DNA of 14,727 bases from the IMG/VR virus record IMGVR_UViG_2579778539_000002. One strand, given 5' to 3'. The position numbers and the translations under genes were made by a program. Origin of the DNA: a virus. Taxonomy: Duplodnaviria > Heunggongvirae > Uroviricota > Caudoviricetes. Positions within the stretch are counted from its first letter, which is position 1; each line of letters opens with the position of its first letter. Below are positions 1 through 9,314 of the stretch, in pieces. A model generated the notes under the pieces. That model did no database searches and was not told where the DNA came from. It saw only the letters and a program-made list of their open reading frames with translations.

Positions 1-237
1 TACCGCAAACAGCTTGCCCTGCCGGATTTCAGTCCGTTGTCACAGGACAGACTCGCCATTCAGTTGATCCGCGAACGCGGTGCACTGGATGACATCCGGG
101 CGGGACGCATTGAGCGCGCCATTTCACGCTGTCGCAATATCTGGGCGTCCCTGCCGGGTGCCGGTTACGGTCAGCGTGAGCATTCACTGGAAAAACTGGT
201 CACCGTCTGGCGTACCGCCGGCGGCGTACCGGCTTAA
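1..237 (+). CDS. K: Endolysin (P2 gpK-like lysozyme), C-terminal fragment; 5' end lies outside the window
   Basis: Frame 1 is open from base 1 to TAA at 235-237. The C-terminal residues ...LPGAGYGQREHSLEKL... resemble the P2 K endolysin as I recall it. Position directly upstream of lysA fits P2 order. Confidence 0.7.
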   Translation, partial: YRKQLALPDFSPLSQDRLAIQLIRERGALDDIRAGRIERAISRCRNIWASLPGAGYGQREHSLEKLVTVWRTAGGVPA

Positions 238-251
238 ACGGAGTAAACACC

Positions 252-677
252 ATGAAGAAATTATCCCTTTCACTGATGCTGAACGTGTCGCTGGCGCTGA
301 TGCTGGCACTGTCCCTGATTTACCCGCAGAGCGTGGCCGTCAGTTTTGTCGCTGCCTGGGCGATTCTGGCGACGGTTATCTGTGTGGTTGCCGGCGGTGT
401 CGGCGTGTATGCCACTGAGTATGTACTGGAGCGCTACGGGCGGGAGCTGCCGCCGGAATCGCTGGCCGTGAAGATTGTCGCGTCGCTGTTTTTGCAGCTG
501 GTGCCGTGGCGCAGACGGGCGGTGGCTCTGGTAGTGATGGTGGCGACGTTTATCTCGCTGGTCGCTGCCGGGTGGATTTTTACCGCGCTGATTTATCTCG
601 TGGTATCGGTGTTCTTCCGGCTGATACGTACGGCCTGCCGTCAGCGTTTTGAGGGGCGGGAACCATGTCAAAGCTGA
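252..677 (+). CDS. lysA: LysA-like lysis accessory membrane protein (141 aa)
   Basis: ATG at 252 preceded by GGAG. Protein is very hydrophobic with several predicted transmembrane stretches. Length of 141 aa and position after K match P2 lysA. Confidence 0.6.
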   Translation: MKKLSLSLMLNVSLALMLALSLIYPQSVAVSFVAAWAILATVICVVAGGVGVYATEYVLERYGRELPPESLAVKIVASLFLQLVPWRRRAVALVVMVATFISLVAAGWIFTALIYLVVSVFFRLIRTACRQRFEGREPCQS

Positions 678-1090
678 TGATTGTGCTGGTCGTGTTGTTA
701 TCGCTGGCGGTGGCGGGTCTGTTTCTGGCGAAGCATGAAAACGCCCGCCTGCGCGCCTCGCTGGACAGGGCGAATAACGTCGCCAGTGAACAGCAGACGA
801 CCATCACCATGCTGAAAAATCAGCTTCATGTTGCCATCACCAGGGCAGACAAAAACGAGCTGGCGCAGGTGGCACTGCGTCAGGAACTGGAGAACGCCGC
901 GAAGCGTGAAGCACAGCGCGAGAAAACCATCACGAGGTTACTCAATGAAAACGAAGATTTTCGCCGCTGGTACGGCGCTGACCTGCCTGATGCTGTGCGC
1001 CGGTTGCACCAGCGCCCCGCCTGCACCGACGCCAGTGATTGTCCACAACGCCTGCCCGAAAGTGAGCCTTTGCCCGATGCCGGGCAGTGA
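665..1090 (+). CDS. lysB: LysB, Rz-like inner-membrane spanin (141 aa)
   Basis: N-terminal transmembrane segment (LMIVLVVLLSLAVAGLFLA) followed by a charged, probably coiled-coil region. Start overlaps the lysA end. Length matches P2 LysB. Confidence 0.65.
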   Translation: MSKLMIVLVVLLSLAVAGLFLAKHENARLRASLDRANNVASEQQTTITMLKNQLHVAITRADKNELAQVALRQELENAAKREAQREKTITRLLNENEDFRRWYGADLPDAVRRLHQRPACTDASDCPQRLPESEPLPDAGQ

Positions 1091-1235
1091 CCCGCAGAAG
1101 AACGGCGATTTAAGTGCCGATATCCGGCAGCTTGAGAACGCGCTGGCACGCTGTGCCAGCCAGGTAAAAATGATTAAACAGTGTCAGGACGAAAACGATG
1201 CTCAAACCCGACAGCCTGCGCAGGGCGCTGACTGA
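945..1235 (+). CDS. lysC: LysC, Rz1-like outer-membrane lipoprotein spanin (96 aa), starting inside lysB in another frame
   Basis: Internal ATG at 945 within six-frame ORF 828..1235. Signal peptide with lipobox LCAG|C, then a Pro-rich mature region. It runs 145 bp past the lysB stop, the overlapped spanin architecture. Length of 96 aa matches P2 LysC. Confidence 0.65.
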   Translation: MKTKIFAAGTALTCLMLCAGCTSAPPAPTPVIVHNACPKVSLCPMPGSDPQKNGDLSADIRQLENALARCASQVKMIKQCQDENDAQTRQPAQGAD

Positions 1236-1665
1236 TGCCGTCACGGTGCTGAAAACCAGTCCTGAGATGCTGCGGATATTCGTGGATAACGGGAGTATTG
1301 CCTCCACACTGGCGACGTCGCTGTCATTCGAAAAGCGTTACACGCTCAATGTCATTGTGACCGACTTTACCGGTGATTTTGATCTGCTCATTGTGCCGGT
1401 GCTGGCGTGGCTGCGGGAAAATCAGCCCGACATCATGACCACCGACGAAGGTCAGAAAAAGGGCTTCACGTTTTATGCAGACATCAACAATGACAGCAGC
1501 TTTGATATCAGCATCAGCCTGATGCTGACCGAGCGCACGCTGGTCAGTGAGGTGGACGGCGCGCTGCATGTGAAGAATATCCCGGAACCTCCGCCGCCGG
1601 AGCCGGTCACCCACCCGATGGAGCTTTATATCAATGGCGAACTGGTGAGTAAGTGGGATGAATGA
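1198..1665 (+). CDS. R: Tail completion protein gpR (155 aa)
   Basis: Length and position match P2 gpR. Start overlaps the lysC end and the stop overlaps the S start (ATGAATGA). Confidence 0.75.
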   Translation: MLKPDSLRRALTDAVTVLKTSPEMLRIFVDNGSIASTLATSLSFEKRYTLNVIVTDFTGDFDLLIVPVLAWLRENQPDIMTTDEGQKKGFTFYADINNDSSFDISISLMLTERTLVSEVDGALHVKNIPEPPPPEPVTHPMELYINGELVSKWDE

Positions 1666-2110
1666 GTTTAAGCGTTTTGAAGACAGGCTGACCGGACTTA
1701 TTGAGTCGCTGTCACCGTCAGGGCGTCGGCGACTGAGCGCCGAACTGGCGAAACGTCTGCGTCAGAGTCAGCAGCGTCGGGTGATGGCACAGAAAGCCCC
1801 GGACGGCACACCCTACGCACCACGCCAGCAGCAGAGCGCCAGAAAAAAGACCGGTCGCGTTAAGCGAAAAATGTTTGCGAAACTTATCACCAGTCGTTTT
1901 TTGCATATCCGCGCCAGCCCGGAACAGGCATCAATGGAGTTTTACGGCGGGAAGTCACCGAAAATCGCCAGCGTGCATCAGTTCGGTCTGTCGGAAGAAA
2001 ACCGAAAAGACGGTAAGAAAATTGATTATCCGGCGCGTCCTCTGCTCGGCTTTACCAGTGAGGATGTGCAGATGATTGAAGAGATTATCCTGGCTCACCT
2101 CGACCGTTAG
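1658..2110 (+). CDS. S: Tail completion protein gpS (150 aa)
   Basis: Length and position match P2 gpS. Translationally coupled to R. Confidence 0.75.
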   Translation: MNEFKRFEDRLTGLIESLSPSGRRRLSAELAKRLRQSQQRRVMAQKAPDGTPYAPRQQQSARKKTGRVKRKMFAKLITSRFLHIRASPEQASMEFYGGKSPKIASVHQFGLSEENRKDGKKIDYPARPLLGFTSEDVQMIEEIILAHLDR

Positions 2111-2142
2111 TTGTGCCATTCCTGACACCTCATCGTCACATT

Positions 2143-2164
2143 GCCGCCGGTATGACCCGGCGGC
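2143..2164 (+). other. GC-rich inverted repeat (8-bp stem GCCGCCGG/CCGGCGGC, 6-nt loop) in the S-V intergenic region
   Basis: Read directly from the sequence. No U-tract follows, so it is not a canonical intrinsic terminator. Function unknown. Confidence 0.4.
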
Positions 2165-2176
2165 ATCCTTCCCGTT

Positions 2177-2812
2177 ATGAACACTCTCGCAAATATTCAG
2201 GAACTCGCGCGCGCACTGCGCAACATGATTCGCACCGGCCTTGTCGTCGAAACCGACCTTAACGCCGGTCGCTGCCGTGTGCAGACCGGCGGCATGTGCA
2301 CCGACTGGCTTCAGTGGCTGACCTGTCGTGCCGGGCGTTCGCGCACATGGTGGGCACCTTCCGTGGGAGAGCAGGTGCTGATTCTGGCCGTGGGCGGTGA
2401 ACTCGACACTGCGTTCGTTCTGCCGGGGATTTATTCCGGCGATAACCCCGCGCCGTCGGCGTCGGCGGATGCCCTGCATATCCGTTTCCCTGACGGGGCG
2501 GTGATTGAGTATGAACCTGAAACCAGTGCACTCACGGTAAGCGGAATTAAAACGGCCAGCGTGACGGCTTCTGATTCTGTTACTGCCACGGTGCCGGTGG
2601 TCATGGTGAAAGCATCAACCCGCGTCACCCTGGACACACCGGAGGTGGTCTGCACCAACAGGCTGATTACCGGCACGCTGGAAGTGCAGAAGGGCGGGAC
2701 GATGCGCGGCAACATTGAACACACCGGCGGTGAACTTTCATCAAACGGTAAAGTACTGCATACCCATAAACACCCCGGCGACAGCGGCGGCAAAACCGGG
2801 AGTCCTCTATGA
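2177..2812 (+). CDS. V: Baseplate spike/assembly protein gpV (211 aa)
   Basis: Length matches P2 gpV and the N-terminus resembles it as I recall. First gene after the S-V gap. Confidence 0.8.
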   Translation: MNTLANIQELARALRNMIRTGLVVETDLNAGRCRVQTGGMCTDWLQWLTCRAGRSRTWWAPSVGEQVLILAVGGELDTAFVLPGIYSGDNPAPSASADALHIRFPDGAVIEYEPETSALTVSGIKTASVTASDSVTATVPVVMVKASTRVTLDTPEVVCTNRLITGTLEVQKGGTMRGNIEHTGGELSSNGKVLHTHKHPGDSGGKTGSPL

Positions 2813-3156
2813 CAGCGCGTTATCTCGGAATGAATCGCAGTGATGGCCTGACTGTCACTGACCTTGAGCATATCAGCCAGAGTATCGGCGATATCCTGCG
2901 CACACCGGTCGGCTCACGGGTGATGCGTCGTGATTACGGCTCGTTGCTGGCGTCAATGATTGACCAGCCGCAGACCCCGGCGCTTGAGTTGCAGATTAAG
3001 GTCGCCTGTTACATGGCCGTACTGAAATGGGAACCCCGCGTCACCCTGTCATCCGTCACCACGGCGCGCAGTTTTGACGGGCGAATGACGGTCACGTTAA
3101 CCGGTCAGCACAACGACACCGGCCAGCCACTTTCGTTAACCATCCCTGTGAGTTGA
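2809..3156 (+). CDS. W: Baseplate wedge protein gpW (gp25/GPW family, 115 aa)
   Basis: Length matches P2 gpW. Start overlaps the V stop (ATGA). Synteny V-W-J-I. Confidence 0.8.
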   Translation: MTARYLGMNRSDGLTVTDLEHISQSIGDILRTPVGSRVMRRDYGSLLASMIDQPQTPALELQIKVACYMAVLKWEPRVTLSSVTTARSFDGRMTVTLTGQHNDTGQPLSLTIPVS

Positions 3157-4069: not shown

Positions 4070-4673
4070 TTCGCGACTGCTGCCGACCGGCTCATCACCG
4101 CTTGAAGTCGCCGCCGCAAAAGCCTGTGCGGAAATTGAAAAAACGCCGGTCAGTATTCGTGAGCTGTGGAACCCGGATACCTGTCCGGCAAATCTGCTGC
4201 CGTGGCTGGCGTGGTCATTTTCGGTCGACAGGTGGGATGATAAATGGCCGGAAGCGACCAAACGCGCTGTTATCCGCGATGCGTATTTCATTCACTGCCA
4301 TAAGGGCACTATTGGTGCGATTCGCCGTGTGGTGGAGCCGCTCGGCTATCTGATTGAGGTGAGGGAGTGGTGGCAACTCAACGAGGAGCCGGGGACGTTC
4401 CGTATCGTTGTTGGCGTGCTTGAGCAGGGTATTACCGAGGAAATGTATCAGGAGCTGGAGCGCCTCGTTGCTGATGCAAAACCGGCAAGCCGCCATCTGA
4501 CGGGACTGGCTATCAGTTTAAGTACAACCGGCAACATTTTTGCCGGTGCGGGATGCTATCACGGCGACGCCCTGACGGTTTATCCCTACACCCCGGAGGC
4601 CATTATTGTCGGAGGGGATTATTTCCCGGCCTCGGCCATTCATTTAATTGATAACCTGAGAGTAAACGCATGA
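4062..4673 (+). CDS. I: Baseplate protein gpI (203 aa)
   Basis: Position between J and H; start overlaps the J stop. Longer than the ~176 aa I recall for P2 gpI (unverified). Confidence 0.7.
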   Translation: MSDSRLLPTGSSPLEVAAAKACAEIEKTPVSIRELWNPDTCPANLLPWLAWSFSVDRWDDKWPEATKRAVIRDAYFIHCHKGTIGAIRRVVEPLGYLIEVREWWQLNEEPGTFRIVVGVLEQGITEEMYQELERLVADAKPASRHLTGLAISLSTTGNIFAGAGCYHGDALTVYPYTPEAIIVGGDYFPASAIHLIDNLRVNA

Positions 4674-5992
4674 CAGTGAAATACTACGCCATTCTGACTA
4701 ATCAGGGCGCAGCACGGCTGGCTAACGCGACGATGCTCGGCAGTAAGCTGAATCTGACGCAAATGGCCGTTGGTGATGCGAATGGTGTCTTGCCGACACC
4801 AGACCCGGCACAGACAAAACTGATTAACCAGAAACGCATCGCGCCGCTGAATCTTCTGAGTGTTGACCCGAACAACCAGAGCCAGATTATTGCGGAGCAA
4901 ATCATCCCTGAGAACGAGGGCGGATTCTGGATCCGTGAGATTGGGCTTTATGATGATGAAGGCGTACTCATTGCGGTGGCGAACTGCCCGGAAACGTACA
5001 AACCGCAGTTGCAGGAAGGCAGTGGTCGTACCCAGACTATCCGCATGATTCTGGTTGTCACGAATACCGAAGCTATCACGCTGAAAATCGACCCGTCGGT
5101 GGTACTGGCGACCCGTAAATACGTGGATGATGAAGTCCTGGAATTAAGGCTGTATGTGGATGACCAGATGAGAAACCACATTGCCGCACAGGATCCTCAT
5201 ACACAGTATGCGCAGAAACATAATCCGACATTTACCGGAGAACCAAAAGCGCCGACGCCTGCCGCAGGAAATAACACCACGCGGATTGCGACCACTGCGT
5301 TTGTTCAGGCCGCTATTACCGCTCTGATTAACGGTGCGCCAGCCACGCTGGACACACTGAAAGAAATTGCCGCAGCCATTAACAATGACCCGAAATTCAG
5401 CACCACCATTAACAATGCGCTGTCAGGTAAGCAGCCACTGGATGAGACGCTGACTCATTTGAGTGGAAAGGATGTAGCTGGTCTTCTCGCATACCTTGGT
5501 TTGGGAGAAGGCTCTGCATTACCGGTTGGTGTGCCTGTTCCGTGGCCTTCAGCCACTCCGCCAACAGGCTGGCTGAAATGCAATGGTGCGGCTTTTTCTG
5601 CTGAAGAATACCCGGAACTGGCAAAGGCTTACCCGACCAATAAATTGCCTGATTTACGTGGTGAGTTTATTCGTGGCTGGGATGATGAACGTGGTGTGGA
5701 TAGTGGGCGAACTCTGCTTTCATCGCAAGGAGATGCTATTCGAAACATTACTGGCGGTTTTGGTCAGTTGCGCGTAAACAGCGAAATTAATGCAATTGTC
5801 GATGTTCAAAGTGTGAGTGGGGCTTTTTACGGAGGTACCTCAGTCCGGAATAACATCAATGTGTCTATGACATACGCTAATGACCGAAAAATCCGACAAG
5901 ATGTTCACTTCTCGGCGGCAAATGTTGTTCCAACAGCAAATGAAAATCGTCCACGTAACATCGCCTTTAATTATATTGTGAGGGCTGCATGA
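4670..5992 (+). CDS. H: Tail fibre protein H (440 aa): constant N-terminal part (aa 1 to ~280) fused to the currently expressed variable C-terminal part, with a recombination site inside the gene
   Basis: N-terminus resembles the P2 H / Mu S fibre N-terminal domain. C-terminal part carries a phage tail-collar-like motif (WLKCNGAAFSAEEYPELAKAYP...LPDLRGEFIRGWDDERGVD). Start overlaps the I stop (ATGA). The 26-bp hix-like site at 5484..5509 is in frame. Confidence 0.85.
   Translation: MTVKYYAILTNQGAARLANATMLGSKLNLTQMAVGDANGVLPTPDPAQTKLINQKRIAPLNLLSVDPNNQSQIIAEQIIPENEGGFWIREIGLYDDEGVLIAVANCPETYKPQLQEGSGRTQTIRMILVVTNTEAITLKIDPSVVLATRKYVDDEVLELRLYVDDQMRNHIAAQDPHTQYAQKHNPTFTGEPKAPTPAAGNNTTRIATTAFVQAAITALINGAPATLDTLKEIAAAINNDPKFSTTINNALSGKQPLDETLTHLSGKDVAGLLAYLGLGEGSALPVGVPVPWPSATPPTGWLKCNGAAFSAEEYPELAKAYPTNKLPDLRGEFIRGWDDERGVDSGRTLLSSQGDAIRNITGGFGQLRVNSEINAIVDVQSVSGAFYGGTSVRNNINVSMTYANDRKIRQDVHFSAANVVPTANENRPRNIAFNYIVRAA
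5484..5509. repeat. Left recombination site, hix/gix-like 26-bp element (TTCTCGCATACC-TT-GGTTTGGGAGAA), inside H
   Basis: The 15 bp at 5496..5510 (TTGGTTTGGGAGAAG) are a perfect inverted repeat of 7389..7403. Overall form is two 12-bp half-sites around a central dinucleotide, similar to hixL as recalled (TTCTTGAAAACC-AA-GGTTTTTGATAA). Confidence 0.6.
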
Positions 5993-6594
5993 TGAATAAA
6001 GCTGTATTAAATAGTGAACTCATTGCCATAAAAGCGGGAGACATTATCATTTATAATTATGATGGTGAAACGCGTGAATATATTTCTACATCAACTGAAT
6101 GTCTCGCTGTCGGCGTCGGTATCCCGGCATGTTCTTGTTTAGATGCACCAGTTACACATAAAGCTGGTTATGCAATCTGCCGTTCTGCAGATTTTAACTC
6201 ATGGGAATATGTGCCAGACCATCGCGGTGAAATCATCTATAGCACCGAAACAGGAGAATCGAAAGAAATCACAGCTCCGGGTGATTACCCTGAAAATACA
6301 ACCACTATCGCCCCGTTAACGCCATATGATAAATGGGATGGTGAGAAATGGGTGACGGATACTGAGGCACAGCATAGTGCCGCAGTAGACGCGGCAGAAG
6401 CACAGCGCCAGTCACTGATTGATGCAGCAATGGCTTCCATTAGTCTGATTCAGCTGAAATTACAGGCCGGACGGAAGTTGACGCAGGCAGAAACAACCAG
6501 ACTTAACGCTGTGCTGGATTACATTGACGCGGTGACGGCAACAGATACCAGCACCGCGCCGGATGTCATCTGGCCTGAACTGCCGGAGGCGTAG
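5989..6594 (+). CDS. G: Tail fibre assembly protein G (201 aa), partner of the currently expressed H variable part
   Basis: Start overlaps the H stop (ATGATGA). C-terminus has the tail fibre assembly motif (LDYIDAV...DTSTAPDVIWPELP). Longer than the 175 aa I recall for P2 G. Confidence 0.75.
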   Translation: MMNKAVLNSELIAIKAGDIIIYNYDGETREYISTSTECLAVGVGIPACSCLDAPVTHKAGYAICRSADFNSWEYVPDHRGEIIYSTETGESKEITAPGDYPENTTTIAPLTPYDKWDGEKWVTDTEAQHSAAVDAAEAQRQSLIDAAMASISLIQLKLQAGRKLTQAETTRLNAVLDYIDAVTATDTSTAPDVIWPELPEA

Positions 6595-7018
6595 GCCATT
6601 CAATATCTGGCGCACCGGAAGTATCGACCAGCACCAGTGCGTCCAGATAATCCAGCCACAAATTATATTGCGCCAGTTCGTCATCTTTCAGACGACCAAT
6701 AGCGGCTTTACCGGGCCATTGCTTACTGTTCATGTATTCGTTGGCCTGGTTAATTAGTAGCTGTCTTTCTGATTCAGTAATTTCAATAAGCTCTTCATGC
6801 GTGGGTGGAGGAATATCTGCCCACGCAGGCATCCCATCATCTCCGGCAATACGGATTTTTCCTTGTGGCGGTTCAGCCATAAACTCACTGATAATATTTT
6901 GATTCACCTCCTTTGCATCTGATAAATCCCATCCCTCTGATTTATATTTATCAATCATATCCACAGGGAAAAAAGCATTATGCCTTGCGCTATAAACATA
7001 TTCGTTCATATAAATCAC
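6566..7018 (-). CDS. Alternative tail fibre assembly protein (G', 150 aa) in the silent orientation
   Basis: C-terminus (LWLDYLDALVLVDTSGAPDIEWPTPP) parallels the G C-terminal motif. Sits directly downstream of the alternative fibre segment on the minus strand. Its 3' end overlaps the G 3' end by 29 bp. Confidence 0.65.
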   Translation of the reverse strand: MIYMNEYVYSARHNAFFPVDMIDKYKSEGWDLSDAKEVNQNIISEFMAEPPQGKIRIAGDDGMPAWADIPPPTHEELIEITESERQLLINQANEYMNSKQWPGKAAIGRLKDDELAQYNLWLDYLDALVLVDTSGAPDIEWPTPPAVQAR

Positions 7019-7029
7019 CCTGAATAAAA

Positions 7030-7443
7030 TTACTCACCAACAGCCCACCAACTGTAATTCATCGATACTGTGGAACTGGTTGATGCAGTTCTGTAAGCGG
7101 AATTAAAACCGGTTAATGTTGGGCCTTCTGCAGTCATCATGAACCCTCGCCCAGCACCTAAAGGCGCACCACCATCACCAGAATGAGTAAGCATGGCGCA
7201 GTCCACTTTTTTAGGAAAAGGGATGCTGAATGTAATTCTCATTGTTTGCGTCGATAATGTCGGCGTAACCGCACCACGACCATATTGCAGGATTTTCCCG
7301 TTGGGTAATTTCATCCATCCATCACCACTGGCAAAAGAGGCCATGTCCGGTATCTGATTTTCCCCTGTCCCCACATCCCGTTTTGCCGCTTCTCCCAAAC
7401 CAACGTTTATGAAAATGCAGAGATAACGGGCAACTGGCATCAT
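7030..7443 (-). CDS. Alternative tail fibre variable C-terminal segment (H'v); no promoter of its own expected, would fuse to the H constant part after inversion
   Basis: Minus-strand ORF reads through the right recombination site. Residues GLGE at aa 15-18 are encoded by the inverted repeat in the same frame as GLGE (aa 277-280) of H. The ATG at 7441-7443 lies outside the segment and may not be a real start. Confidence 0.6.
   Translation of the reverse strand: MMPVARYLCIFINVGLGEAAKRDVGTGENQIPDMASFASGDGWMKLPNGKILQYGRGAVTPTLSTQTMRITFSIPFPKKVDCAMLTHSGDGGAPLGAGRGFMMTAEGPTLTGFNSAYRTASTSSTVSMNYSWWAVGE
7390..7415. repeat. Right recombination site, hix/gix-like 26-bp element (TTCTCCCAAACC-AA-CGTTTATGAAAA)
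   Basis: Contains the reverse complement of the 15-bp core in H. Central dinucleotide AA is the complement of TT in the left site, as inversion requires. Lies 55 bp upstream of the invertase start. Confidence 0.6.
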
Positions 7444-7470
7444 CTCCGGTTTTTATTCAGGGGGATGCTC

Positions 7471-8064
7471 ATGCTTATTGGCTATGTACGCGTGTCAACA
7501 AATGACCAGAACACGGAATTGCAGCGTAACGCGCTGGAGTGCGCAGGATGCGAGCGGATTTTTGAGGATAAAATCAGCGGCACGAAGTCCGACCGACCGG
7601 GACTGAAAAAACTGCTCAGAACATTATCAGCAGGTGACACTCTGGTAGTCTGGAAGCTGGACCGGCTGGGGCGTAGTATGCGGCATCTGGTCATTCTGGT
7701 TGAGGAGCTGCGCGAACGCGGCGTTAATTTTCGCAGCCTGACAGATGCTATTGATACCAGCACGCCGATGGGGCGTTTTTTCTTTCATGTGATGGGTGCC
7801 CTGGCTGAAATGGAGCGAGAACTCATTGTCGAGCGGACACGCGCTGGACTGGAAGCGGCCAGAGCCAAAGGGCGTATTGGTGGCAGACGTCCGAAGCTCA
7901 CCGCGAGTGAGTGGGAGCAGGCCGGGCGGTTGCTGGCTGCGGGGGAATCTCGTCAACGTGTGGCGCTGATTTTTGATATTGGCCTGTCCACGCTCTATAA
8001 AAAATTCCCCTCATCAGCGACAAAGAATAAATTGTGTCATCCCTTAGCCAACCGGGACAAATAG
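7471..8064 (+). CDS. Serine site-specific DNA invertase, Gin/Cin/Pin/Hin family (197 aa from ATG 7471; in-frame ATG at 7465 would add 2 aa)
   Basis: N-terminus MLIGYVRVSTNDQNTELQRNAL carries the catalytic-serine motif (Ser9) typical of small serine recombinases and is near-identical to Gin/Pin as recalled. C-terminal HTH-like region (GLSTLYKKFP). AGGGGG Shine-Dalgarno 6 nt before 7471. Confidence 0.9.
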   Translation: MLIGYVRVSTNDQNTELQRNALECAGCERIFEDKISGTKSDRPGLKKLLRTLSAGDTLVVWKLDRLGRSMRHLVILVEELRERGVNFRSLTDAIDTSTPMGRFFFHVMGALAEMERELIVERTRAGLEAARAKGRIGGRRPKLTASEWEQAGRLLAAGESRQRVALIFDIGLSTLYKKFPSSATKNKLCHPLANRDK

Positions 8065-8123
8065 CCTGACATCTCCGGCACAACTGAAAATACCACTCAC
8101 CCATTAACCACGGAGTTAAACGG

Positions 8124-9314
8124 ATGAGTGACTATCATCACGGCGTGCAGGTGCTGGAGATTAACGACGGCACCCGCGTCATTTCCACCGTATCCACTGC
8201 CATTGTCGGCATGGTCTGCACGGCCAGCGATGCGGATGCGGAAACCTTCCCCCTCAATAAACCTGTGCTGATTACCAATGTGCAGAGCGCAATTGCAAAG
8301 GCCGGTAAAAAAGGCACGCTGGCAGCATCGTTGCAGGCCATCGCTGACCAGTCAAAACCGGTCACCGTTGTCGTGCGTGTGGAAGACGGCACCGGCGACG
8401 ACGAAGAAACGAAACTCGCGCAGACCGTTTCCAATATCATCGGCACCACCGACGAAAACGGTCAGTACACCGGACTGAAAGCCCTGCTGGCGGCGGAGTC
8501 GGTTACCGGTGTTAAACCGCGTATTCTTGGTGTGCCGGGACTGGACACCAAAGAGGTGGCGGTTGCACTGGCATCCGTCTGTCAGAAGCTGCGCGCTTTC
8601 GGGTATATCAGCGCATGGGGCTGTAAAACCATTTCCGAGGTGAAAGCCTACCGCCAGAATTTCAGCCAGCGTGAGCTGATGGTCATCTGGCCGGATTTCC
8701 TCGCATGGGATACGGTCACCAGTACCACCGCCACCGCGTATGCCACCGCCCGTGCGCTGGGTCTGCGTGCCAAAATCGACCAGGAGCAGGGCTGGCATAA
8801 AACGCTGTCCAACGTCGGGGTGAACGGTGTTACCGGCATCAGCGCATCTGTATTCTGGGATTTGCAGGAGTCCGGCACCGATGCTGACCTGCTTAACGAG
8901 TCAGGCGTCACAACGCTGATTCGCCGTGACGGTTTCCGCTTCTGGGGTAACCGTACCTGCTCTGATGACCCGCTGTTCCTCTTTGAAAACTACACCCGCA
9001 CCGCGCAGGTGCTGGCCGACACGATGGCTGAGGCGCATATGTGGGCGGTGGACAAGCCTATCACCGCAACGCTGATTCGCGACATCGTTGACGGCATCAA
9101 TGCCAAATTCCGTGAGCTGAAAACAAACGGTTATATCGTGGATGCGACCTGCTGGTTCAGCGAAGAATCCAACGATGCGGAAACCCTTAAGGCCGGAAAA
9201 CTGTATATCGACTACGACTATACCCCGGTGCCTCCTCTTGAAAACCTGACCCTGCGCCAGCGTATTACCGATAAATACCTGGCAAATCTGGTCACCTCGG
9301 TTAACAGCAATTAA
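8124..9314 (+). CDS. FI: Contractile tail sheath protein FI (396 aa)
   Basis: Length matches P2 FI. GGAG RBS. Followed by the tube gene. Confidence 0.9.
   Translation: MSDYHHGVQVLEINDGTRVISTVSTAIVGMVCTASDADAETFPLNKPVLITNVQSAIAKAGKKGTLAASLQAIADQSKPVTVVVRVEDGTGDDEETKLAQTVSNIIGTTDENGQYTGLKALLAAESVTGVKPRILGVPGLDTKEVAVALASVCQKLRAFGYISAWGCKTISEVKAYRQNFSQRELMVIWPDFLAWDTVTSTTATAYATARALGLRAKIDQEQGWHKTLSNVGVNGVTGISASVFWDLQESGTDADLLNESGVTTLIRRDGFRFWGNRTCSDDPLFLFENYTRTAQVLADTMAEAHMWAVDKPITATLIRDIVDGINAKFRELKTNGYIVDATCWFSEESNDAETLKAGKLYIDYDYTPVPPLENLTLRQRITDKYLANLVTSVNSN

What the first reader, a model, noticed from the sequence alone, without database searches (positions are those of the whole stretch)
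5484..5509. In-frame crossover site inside H with hix/gix-like 26-bp architecture
Left site is TTCTCGCATACC-TT-GGTTTGGGAGAA (5484..5509) and right site is TTCTCCCAAACC-AA-CGTTTATGAAAA (7390..7415). The central dinucleotides TT and AA are complementary, as needed for productive inversion. The shared core encodes Gly-Leu-Gly-Glu in the same frame in both H (aa 277-280) and the minus-strand ORF (aa 15-18), so inversion swaps the C-terminal domain without breaking the reading frame.
Basis: seen in the sequence. Interest (0 to 1): 0.55.

Follow-up and report, generated by a model that had tools for sequence, protein, structure and literature searches.

The report
Invertible tail-fibre switch, P2-like prophage
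The two 26-base sites are real crossover sites of a classic Pin/Gin-type DNA inversion switch that lets a P2-like E. coli prophage swap the receptor-binding end of its tail fibre; it is a well-known mechanism, and this element is already in hundreds of sequenced genomes.

Summary
Sites 5484-5509 and 7390-7415 are the only two matches in the window to the Hin/Gin/Cin/Pin crossover-site consensus, where none is expected by chance. The right site is identical (26/26) to the site next to pinE in the E. coli K-12 e14 prophage. The left site matches the other e14 site at 23/26. They flank a 1.9-kb segment that holds two alternative tail-fibre C-termini, each with its own assembly chaperone. A gene for a serine invertase (87% identical to PinE) lies immediately beside it. 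Inverting the segment in silico gives an uninterrupted 399-aa H'. That inverted form exists in nature: E. coli O157:H16 98-3133 is colinear with the inverted window over 11.6 kb. The O157:H7 genomes EC4115 and TW14359 have 100% identical flanks but opposite segment orientation, with breakpoints inside the 26-bp sites. The reading frame through the site ((N/Y)-L-G-L-x-E) is the same in Mu S, P1 S, e14 StfP and this H. This is a pix-type inversion switch in a P2-like prophage. The mechanism is textbook, and inversion in P2-like prophages has been shown experimentally. Interest is low.

The parts
4670..5497 (+). Constant N-terminal part of tail-fibre gene H (aa 1-276), outside the invertible segment
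   Evidence: ORF 4670-5992. Pfam Phage_tail_fib N-terminal domain at aa 1-150, E=2.6e-62. About 42% identical to P2 gpH over aa 26-280. Identical in both orientation states.
5484..5509 (+). Left crossover site (pix-type), TTCTCGCATACC-TT-GGTTTGGGAGAA; core dinucleotide at 5496-5497; read in frame as A-Y-L-G-L-G-E
   Evidence: 23/26 identical to the e14 left site. The natural inversion breakpoint lies within it.
5497..7402 (.). Invertible segment, about 1906 bp between the centres of the two cores
   Evidence: Found inverted in E. coli O157:H16 98-3133 relative to the window, and in EC4115 relative to TW14359, with flanks unchanged.
5498..5992 (+). Variable C-terminus Hv(+), currently fused to H (aa 277-440); carries a tail-collar domain
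   Evidence: Pfam Collar PF07484 at aa 287-334, E=3.1e-15. Window 5493-5685 is 96% identical to e14 stfE.
5989..6594 (+). Tail-fibre assembly chaperone G (tfaE-like), partner of Hv(+)
   Evidence: Pfam Caudo_TAP, E=1.8e-32. Window 5942-6721 is 89% identical to e14 DNA that includes tfaE. The RefSeq homologue is annotated tfaE.
6566..7009 (-). Alternative tail-fibre assembly chaperone G' on the minus strand, partner of Hv'. The mechanical ORF starts at GTG 7018; the RefSeq homologue starts at ATG 7009.
   Evidence: Pfam Caudo_TAP, E=2.1e-30. RefSeq annotation of the homologue. Sequence read.
7030..7401 (-). Alternative variable C-terminus Hv' (gp53-like receptor-binding domain). Joined to H after inversion; now attached to a 14-codon orphan leader.
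   Evidence: Pfam Gp53-like_C PF21882, E=2.7e-13. In silico H' is 399 aa. The same intact H' is present in L001.
7402..7443 (-). Orphan 14-codon leader (MMPVARYLCIFINV) outside the segment. It caps whichever variable end is silent, as the e14 stfE start does.
   Evidence: Translation. Similar to the e14 leader MPFACYFFIFINV.
7390..7415 (+). Right crossover site (pix-type), TTCTCCCAAACC-AA-CGTTTATGAAAA; core dinucleotide at 7402-7403
   Evidence: 26/26 identical to the e14 site beside pinE. The natural breakpoint lies within it.
7471..8064 (+). Serine DNA invertase gene (197 aa from the conserved MLIGYVRVS start; the mechanical ORF starts at 7465)
   Evidence: Pfam Resolvase, E=8.3e-53, plus HTH_7, E=1.1e-12. 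87% identical to PinE, 80% to Gin, 78% to Cin and 66% to Hin. Catalytic Ser9 and helix-B basic residues K46, K47 and R50 are present.
7489..7560 (+). Presumed Fis-dependent recombinational enhancer (nt 19-90 of the invertase gene), inferred by homology only
   Evidence: Colinear with the enhancer annotated in the P1 record at cin nt 19-90. 78% identical to cin, 85% to pinE and 74% to gin over this stretch, higher than over the rest of the gene.

Best explanation
The window is the late/tail region of a P2-like (Peduovirus) prophage of E. coli. The two 26-bp sites are the crossover sites of a Din-family (Hin/Gin/Cin/Pin) serine-invertase switch. An invertase dimer, encoded at 7471-8064, binds each site. 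The two sites are brought together with a Fis-bound enhancer in the 5' end of the invertase gene. All four strands are cut with a 2-bp stagger at the TT/AA cores, one pair of subunits rotates 180 degrees, and the ends are religated. This flips the 1.9-kb segment. Because the site lies in frame inside H (A-Y-L-G-L-G-E), the constant N-terminal 276 residues become fused to one of two C-terminal ends. In the present orientation the fused end is the collar-type domain (5498-5992), co-expressed with chaperone G. In the flipped orientation it is the gp53-like domain (7401-7030), co-expressed with chaperone G'. The result is two virion populations with different receptor specificity. Shown here: the sites, the frame, the invertase homology and natural inversion at these sites. 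Inferred from the family: the cleavage chemistry, Fis and enhancer dependence, and the change in host range.
For: Site statistics and family match. The right site is 26/26 identical to the e14 pix site and the left is 23/26. The published e14 P-segment inverted repeat TTGGTTTGGGAGAAGG (PMC12529663) occurs exactly at 5496-5511. The invertase is 87/80/78/66% identical to PinE/Gin/Cin/Hin, with the catalytic Ser and helix-B basic residues (PMC3798978). In silico inversion gives an open 399-aa H'. E. coli O157:H16 98-3133 is colinear with the inverted window over 11,597 bp at 99.2% without gaps, and its H' is intact. EC4115 and TW14359 have 100% identical 1712-bp flanks on each side and a 1908-bp block at 99.95% identity in opposite orientation, with breakpoints inside the sites. 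Many genomes carry each junction type. Each variable end has a different receptor-binding-type domain and its own Caudo_TAP chaperone. The reading frame through the site is the same in Mu S, P1 S and e14 StfP. Inversion in P2-like prophages of EPEC has been demonstrated by sequencing and PCR (PMC4272514).
Against: Nothing contradicts this explanation. The limits are as follows. Inversion was not observed for this DNA molecule itself, only for near-identical elements. The enhancer rests on homology, and the excess of synonymous-site conservation there is based on small counts. No sigma-70-like promoter for the invertase was found between the right site and its start codon. The receptor specificities of the two fibre ends are unknown.
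Confidence: 0.93

Rival explanations
1. The sites are fossils. The segment is fixed in this copy, and the two orientations seen in databases reflect ancient events or assembly choices rather than ongoing switching.
For: Canonical P2 H carries a relic gix-like site with no invertase nearby, so fossil sites do exist in this gene family. No invertase promoter was detected by the consensus scan.
Against: The invertase ORF is full length with its catalytic residues. Both sites are identical in the window, L001, L002, EC4115 and TW14359. EC4115 and TW14359 have flanks with no differences yet opposite orientation, which implies a very recent flip. Both O157:H7 states are common.
Confidence: 0.04
2. 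Inversion occurs by general (RecA-dependent) homologous recombination between the short inverted repeats, not by the site-specific invertase.
For: The two sites share a perfect 15-bp inverted repeat.
Against: By established knowledge, 15 bp is below the roughly 20-30 bp of homology that RecA-dependent recombination needs in E. coli. The repeat sits inside a full 26-bp dyad site that matches the Din-family consensus, with none expected by chance, next to a Pin orthologue. In e14 the same repeats are inverted by PinE, PinQ and PinR, and the segment is locked in pin mutants (PMC12529663).
Confidence: 0.01
3. The switch serves the lysogen rather than, or as well as, the phage. The orphan ORF beside the invertase (7030-7443, minus strand: 14-residue leader plus gp53-like domain) would be expressed and act like e14 StfE2, blocking adsorption of other phages, with inversion toggling this.
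For: The ORF has the same architecture as e14 StfE2, with a similar leader (MPxAxYxxIFINVGLGE) and a gp53-like domain at 30% identity, E=3e-8. StfE2 is reported to block T2 adsorption (PMC12529663).
Against: No promoter-like site was found on the minus strand upstream of 7443. In Mu and P1 the orphan-capped end is regarded as silent (established knowledge). Identity to StfE2 is low. The prophage looks complete in this window, so a virion host-range role is sufficient to explain the switch.
Confidence: 0.1

Closest known systems
P segment / pix sites / PinE of the E. coli K-12 e14 cryptic prophage
   Same: The right site is identical at 26/26 and the left at 23/26. Both share the inner half-site TTCTCCCAAACC and the TT/AA cores. 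The invertase is 87% identical. The layout is the same: fibre constant part, then Hv-Tfa and Tfa'-Hv' facing each other, then the invertase. One cassette is shared: the collar-type end is 96% identical at the DNA level at its start, and the tfaE region is 89% identical.
   Different: The host element is a P2-like myovirus prophage with an apparently complete tail gene set, not the defective lambdoid e14. The constant part is a P2 gpH-type N-terminus. The second cassette (gp53-like end) is only about 30% identical to the e14 StfP end. The segment is 1906 bp here against 1827 bp between core centres in e14. The invertase has a C-terminal tail 13 residues longer.
G segment / gix / Gin of phage Mu and C segment / cix / Cin of phage P1
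   Same: The same 26-bp site architecture, with half-site matches of 8-11/12 to the common consensus. The reading frame through the site is the same (IQNLGLQE, IQYLGLRE and AYLGLGE). Each has two alternative fibre ends with their own chaperones. The invertase lies just outside one site, and an enhancer lies in its first ~90 nt.
   Different: The invertase is 78-80% identical. The Mu core dinucleotide is TC/GA. The Mu and P1 segments are about 3.0 and 4.2 kb, with different variable domains.
Invertible tail-fibre loci of P2-like prophages (EPEC E2348/69; Fin of Salmonella Fels-2)
   Same: The same kind of element in the same phage family. Coexistence of both orientations in clonal cultures was shown for E2348/69 (PMC4272514). 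Fels-2 Fin is cited as a prophage invertase acting on the H segment (PMC12529663).
   Different: One EPEC locus has three inverted repeats and four variants. The window has only two sites, hence two states. I did not compare sequences with the EPEC or Fels-2 loci.
H segment / hix / Hin of Salmonella
   Same: The same 26-bp site type, with hixL and hixR verified in L010. The invertase is 66% identical, and the cores are complementary AA/TT.
   Different: Hin flips a promoter, and its gene lies inside the segment. Here a coding exon is swapped in frame, and the invertase gene lies outside the segment.

Membership tests
Din-family (Hin/Gin/Cin/Pin) DNA inversion system | 26-bp crossover site made of two imperfect 12-bp inverted half-sites around a 2-bp core, matching the family half-site consensus (TTCTCCAAAACC, derived from 16 known half-sites) | tested here: met
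   Dyad symmetry is 10/12 and 8/12. The four half-sites match the consensus at 9, 11, 11 and 8 of 12, within the range of authentic sites (5-11/12). The degenerate pattern hits only these two places, with no hits in 200 shuffles.
Din-family (Hin/Gin/Cin/Pin) DNA inversion system | Two sites in inverted orientation with complementary core dinucleotides, an identical inner half-site and divergent outer half-sites | tested here: met
   The cores are TT and AA. The inner half TTCTCCCAAACC is present at both ends. The outer halves are TTCTCGCATACC and TTTTCATAAACG. Mu, P1, e14 and hix show the same pattern.
Din-family (Hin/Gin/Cin/Pin) DNA inversion system | Adjacent gene for a small serine recombinase with an N-terminal catalytic domain (Ser9/10) and a C-terminal HTH | tested here: met
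   Pfam Resolvase plus HTH_7. 87/80/78/66% identical to PinE/Gin/Cin/Hin, with YVRVS conserved.
Din-family (Hin/Gin/Cin/Pin) DNA inversion system | Helix-B basic residues (Hin K47, K/R48, K/R51) that contact the enhancer and are specific to the invertase subclass | tested here: met
   K46, K47 and R50 align with Hin residues 47, 48 and 51. The criterion comes from PMC3798978.
Din-family (Hin/Gin/Cin/Pin) DNA inversion system | Fis-dependent recombinational enhancer in cis (in the 5' end of the invertase gene for Gin, Cin and Pin) | tested here: inconclusive
   The stretch colinear with the P1-annotated enhancer (cin nt 19-90) is 74-85% identical to gin, cin and pinE. It shows somewhat higher synonymous conservation than the rest of the gene, for example 15/21 against 68/124 versus pinE. 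Fis binding cannot be tested here.
Din-family (Hin/Gin/Cin/Pin) DNA inversion system | The segment between the sites actually inverts, with exchange inside the sites | tested here: met
   Comparative evidence only. L001 equals the in silico inverted window. EC4115 and TW14359 have identical flanks and a flipped 1908-bp block, with breakpoints within the 26-mers. Not tested on this molecule.
Phage tail-fibre C-terminus switching (Mu S/S', P1 S/S', e14 StfP/StfE) | The crossover site lies in frame inside the fibre gene, so each orientation gives a complete fibre ORF followed by its own assembly chaperone | tested here: met
   H is 440 aa and H' is 399 aa, both open. The codon offset (1) and the LGLxE peptide are the same in Mu S, P1 S, e14 StfP and H. 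There are two Caudo_TAP genes in opposite orientation.
Multi-site inversion systems (Min of p15B, the three-repeat EPEC P2-like locus, R64 shufflon) | Three or more crossover sites giving more than two arrangements (R64: tyrosine recombinase Rci with 19-bp sfx repeats) | tested here: not met
   Only two consensus matches in the whole window at up to 3 mismatches or at a score of 15/20 or more. The recombinase is a serine recombinase.
P2-like (Peduovirus) tail gene cluster | Gene order V-W-J-I-H-G ... FI-FII-E-T-U-D with a P2 gpH-type fibre N-terminus | tested here: met
   ORF order and Pfam families. RefSeq annotation of near-identical loci. Best phage match is Peduovirus magyaro, 93% identity over 93% of window 4600-8100. 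Canonical P2 has fun(Z) where the window has G', Hv' and the invertase.

The most novel reading that the evidence does not exclude
The orphan ORF beside the invertase (7030-7443, minus strand) has the architecture of e14 StfE2, a short leader fused to a gp53-like domain. It might be expressed from the prophage and protect the lysogen by blocking adsorption of unrelated phages. The switch would then toggle a host defence phenotype as well as virion host range.
Probability: 0.1. Interest if true: 0.45.

Novelty: already known. Interest (0 to 1): 0.1.

Why it matters
The finding matters mainly for correct annotation. The switch explains why the same prophage appears with two different tail-fibre genes in otherwise identical genomes. 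It also explains why RefSeq annotation calls H a C-terminally truncated pseudogene, plus a separate small gp53-like ORF, in the flipped state. The switch predicts two host-range classes of virions from one lysogen. Because its sites are the same as those of e14, cross-talk with resident Pin-family invertases is expected. It adds no new mechanism.

Tried and rejected
- Third crossover site (a multi-site system of the Min or EPEC three-repeat type): searched for and not found.
- Promoters: I scanned 6900-8200 for sigma-70-like sites that could drive the invertase or the orphan ORF. The only hit was one weak + strand match at 6919-6948, no more than expected by chance. Promoters therefore remain unassigned.
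- Enhancer constraint: I compared synonymous-site conservation in codons 7-30 with the rest of the invertase gene. The trend favours extra constraint, but the counts are small and I do not treat it as proof.
- Exact Fis sites: I looked for G-N13-C 15-mers. Candidates at gene nt 22-36 and 71-85 are conserved in position, but I could not confirm them against a held paper.
- Papers: the original e14 papers (PMC331406, PMC554175) are not held. The pix sites were therefore taken from the MG1655 record itself and from PMC12529663.
- 16-nt inverted repeat at 7014-7029 and 7451-7466: considered as a further recombination feature. It is a shared ribosome-binding-site-like motif 4 nt upstream of two start codons. 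The invertase copy is family-conserved (e14, Mu), so I treat it as incidental.
- RecA-mediated inversion and fossil sites: both rejected, as set out under the rival explanations.

Full report
**1. What is in the sequence**

The left site is 5484-5509, TTCTCGCATACC-TT-GGTTTGGGAGAA. The right site is 7390-7415, TTCTCCCAAACC-AA-CGTTTATGAAAA.

- They are the top-ranked inverted repeat of the region (27 nt, 81% complementary).
- The reverse complement of the left site matches the right site at 21/26. Each site has internal dyad symmetry, 10/12 and 8/12.
- I searched the whole window on both strands with the degenerate family pattern TTCTCNNAAACCNNGGTTTNNGAGAA, allowing up to three mismatches. Only these two places match (1 and 2 mismatches). 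None of 200 dinucleotide-preserving shuffles gave any hit.

**2. Surroundings**

The window is the late/tail region of a P2-like prophage.

- The ORF order and Pfam families give lysis genes, then V, W, J and I (Tail_P2_I).
- H follows at 4670-5992, with a P2-type fibre N-terminus at E=2.6e-62 and a Collar domain at aa 287-334.
- G is at 5989-6594 (Caudo_TAP).
- On the minus strand lie a second Caudo_TAP gene (6566-7009/7018) and a 137-aa ORF with a gp53-like C-terminal domain (7030-7443).
- On the plus strand there is a Resolvase + HTH_7 gene (7465/7471-8064).
- After that come sheath FI, tube FII, E, T, U and D.

The best phage match for 4600-8100 is Peduovirus magyaro, the 'phage P2' record from E. 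coli O157:H43 T22 (93% identity over 93% of the query). The best E. coli genome match for the whole window is strain 65COLEC, at 99.3% over all 14,727 bases. In canonical P2 the G-FI interval holds fun(Z) and no invertase. Here that interval holds G', Hv' and the invertase.

**3. Frame and in silico inversion**

GLGE is at aa 277-280 of H and at aa 15-18 of the minus-strand ORF (translation). I exchanged the DNA between the two core dinucleotides (5496-5497 and 7402-7403).

- Both 26-mers are regenerated unchanged.
- The result is an uninterrupted 399-aa H', made of constant aa 1-276 plus the gp53-like end.
- The collar-type end becomes attached to the 14-codon orphan leader, giving a 178-aa ORF.

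**4. Comparison with authentic sites**

I took the reference sites from database records rather than from memory:

- gix from Mu, at the annotated G-segment boundaries.
- cixL and cixR from the annotated P1 record.
- The two sites flanking the P segment of e14 in MG1655.
- hixL and hixR flanking hin in a Salmonella diarizonae contig, found by an exact-pattern scan.

The right site of the window is identical at 26/26 to the e14 site next to pinE. The left site matches the other e14 site at 23/26, differing only in its outer half. The four half-sites of the window match the consensus of the 16 known half-sites at 9, 11, 11 and 8 of 12. Authentic sites range from 5 to 11 of 12.

As in every known system, the inner half-site is identical at both ends (TTCTCCCAAACC) and the outer halves diverge. 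The cores are complementary: TT/AA here, in e14 and in P1, TC/GA in Mu, and AA/TT in hix. The e14 inverted repeat published in 2025, TTGGTTTGGGAGAAGG (PMC12529663), occurs exactly at 5496-5511.

The reading frame through the site has the same codon offset in four genes:

| Gene | Peptide across the site |
|---|---|
| Mu S | IQNLGLQE |
| P1 S | IQYLGLRE |
| e14 StfP | ENLGLGE |
| Window H | AYLGLGE |

The in-frame property is therefore a family trait.

**5. The recombinase**

From the conserved MLIGYVRVS start (7471) the protein is 197 aa.

- It is 87% identical to PinE, 80% to Gin, 78% to Cin and 66% to Hin.
- The catalytic serine (Ser9) is present.
- The helix-B basic residues that contact the enhancer are present as K46, K47 and R50. 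In Hin these are K47, K/R48 and K/R51, and they are reported as specific to the invertase subclass (PMC3798978).

Nucleotides 19-90 of the gene (window 7489-7560) are colinear with the enhancer annotated in the P1 record. Over that stretch the window is 74-85% identical to gin, cin and pinE, which is higher than over the rest of the gene. Synonymous codons are also somewhat more conserved there, for example 15/21 against 68/124 versus pinE. This is consistent with a Fis-dependent enhancer but does not prove one.

**6. Evidence that inversion happens at these sites**

The in silico inverted left junction is found at 100% identity in E. coli O157:H16 98-3133 and at 99% in many O157:H7 genomes. 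The native junctions are also common.

The O157:H16 locus (L001) is colinear with the in silico inverted window over 11,597 bp at 99.2% without gaps. Against the native window it splits into three blocks, with the middle 1911 bp reversed. Its H' is an intact 399-aa ORF.

The clearest case is O157:H7 EC4115 against TW14359. The 1712-bp flanks on each side are 100% identical. The 1908-bp block between them is 99.95% identical but inverted. The breakpoints fall inside the two 26-mers, and both 26-mers are identical in the two genomes and in the window. Identical flanks with a flipped segment imply a very recent flip.

Experimental precedent exists. Both orientations coexist in clonal cultures for the e14 segment and for P2-like prophages of EPEC E2348/69 (PMC4272514). 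PinE, PinQ and PinR all invert the e14 segment (PMC12529663).

**7. Mechanism**

The following steps are inferred from the family. Invertase dimers bind the two sites. With the Fis-bound enhancer they form an invertasome. All four strands are cleaved with a 2-bp stagger at the cores, subunits rotate by 180 degrees, and the ends are religated.

The consequence for coding is shown directly by the sequence. The constant part of H is joined either to the collar-type end with chaperone G, or to the gp53-like end with chaperone G'. That the two forms have different receptor specificity is inferred by analogy with Mu and P1.

**8. Rivals**

- **Fossil sites.** These do exist in this gene family. Canonical P2 H carries a relic gix-like site (TTATCGAATATCTCGGTTTACAGGAA, encoding EYLGLQETVNRA) with no invertase nearby. 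Here, however, the invertase is intact and near-clonal genomes differ in orientation.
- **RecA-mediated exchange.** This is unlikely because the shared perfect repeat is only 15 bp, and it sits inside a full consensus site next to a Pin orthologue.
- **A host-defence role for the orphan ORF.** Its architecture matches e14 StfE2, with 30% identity and E=3e-8. This cannot be excluded, but no promoter evidence supports it.

**9. Novelty and verdict**

This is a pix-type Din-family inversion switch embedded in a P2-like prophage. The mechanism is textbook. The right site is the e14 site itself. The same element is present in both states in many public genomes. Inversion in P2-like prophages has been shown experimentally. 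I rate it as already known, with low interest.

Noticed in passing
L001 5275-5664 and 6064-6474; L007 2775-3164 and 3564-3974 (homologues of window H in the flipped state): In the flipped orientation RefSeq/PGAP annotates H as a pseudogene ('missing C-terminus') plus a separate 'gp53-like domain-containing protein'. Translation shows one intact 399-aa H' ORF. This is an annotation artefact caused by the inversion switch.
   Followed up: yes
window 7030-7443 (-): The silent cassette capped by the 14-codon leader forms a 137-aa ORF with the same architecture as e14 StfE2 (leader MPxAxYxxIFINVGLGE plus a gp53-like domain, 30% identity). A 2025 paper reports that StfE2 blocks T2 adsorption. No promoter-like site was found upstream.
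   Followed up: partly
window 7014-7029 and 7451-7466: A 16-nt inverted repeat with 15/16 bases complementary, TTTTATTCAGGG(T/G)GAT. It lies exactly 4 nt upstream of the ATG of G' (minus strand) and of the invertase (plus strand). The invertase copy resembles the pinE and gin upstream regions, so this is probably a shared ribosome-binding-site context and is unexplained beyond that.
   Followed up: partly
L011 2858-2883 (canonical phage P2, gene H, aa ~375-383): P2 H, which has no invertase nearby, contains a relic gix-like site (15/20 to the consensus). It is read in the same frame as EYLGLQETVNRA, almost the same peptide as Mu S at gix (NLGLQETVNRA). This marks the crossover site as an old module junction of fibre genes.
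   Followed up: partly
window 8064-8124 versus L011 4275-6652: The G-FI interval, which holds the lysogenic-conversion gene fun(Z) in P2, is occupied here by G', Hv' and the invertase. This fits the interval being a variable cargo spot in P2-like phages.
   Followed up: no
window 7471-8064, C-terminus: The invertase has a C-terminal tail (SSATKNKLCHPLANRDK) 13 residues longer than PinE. Its significance is unknown.
   Followed up: no
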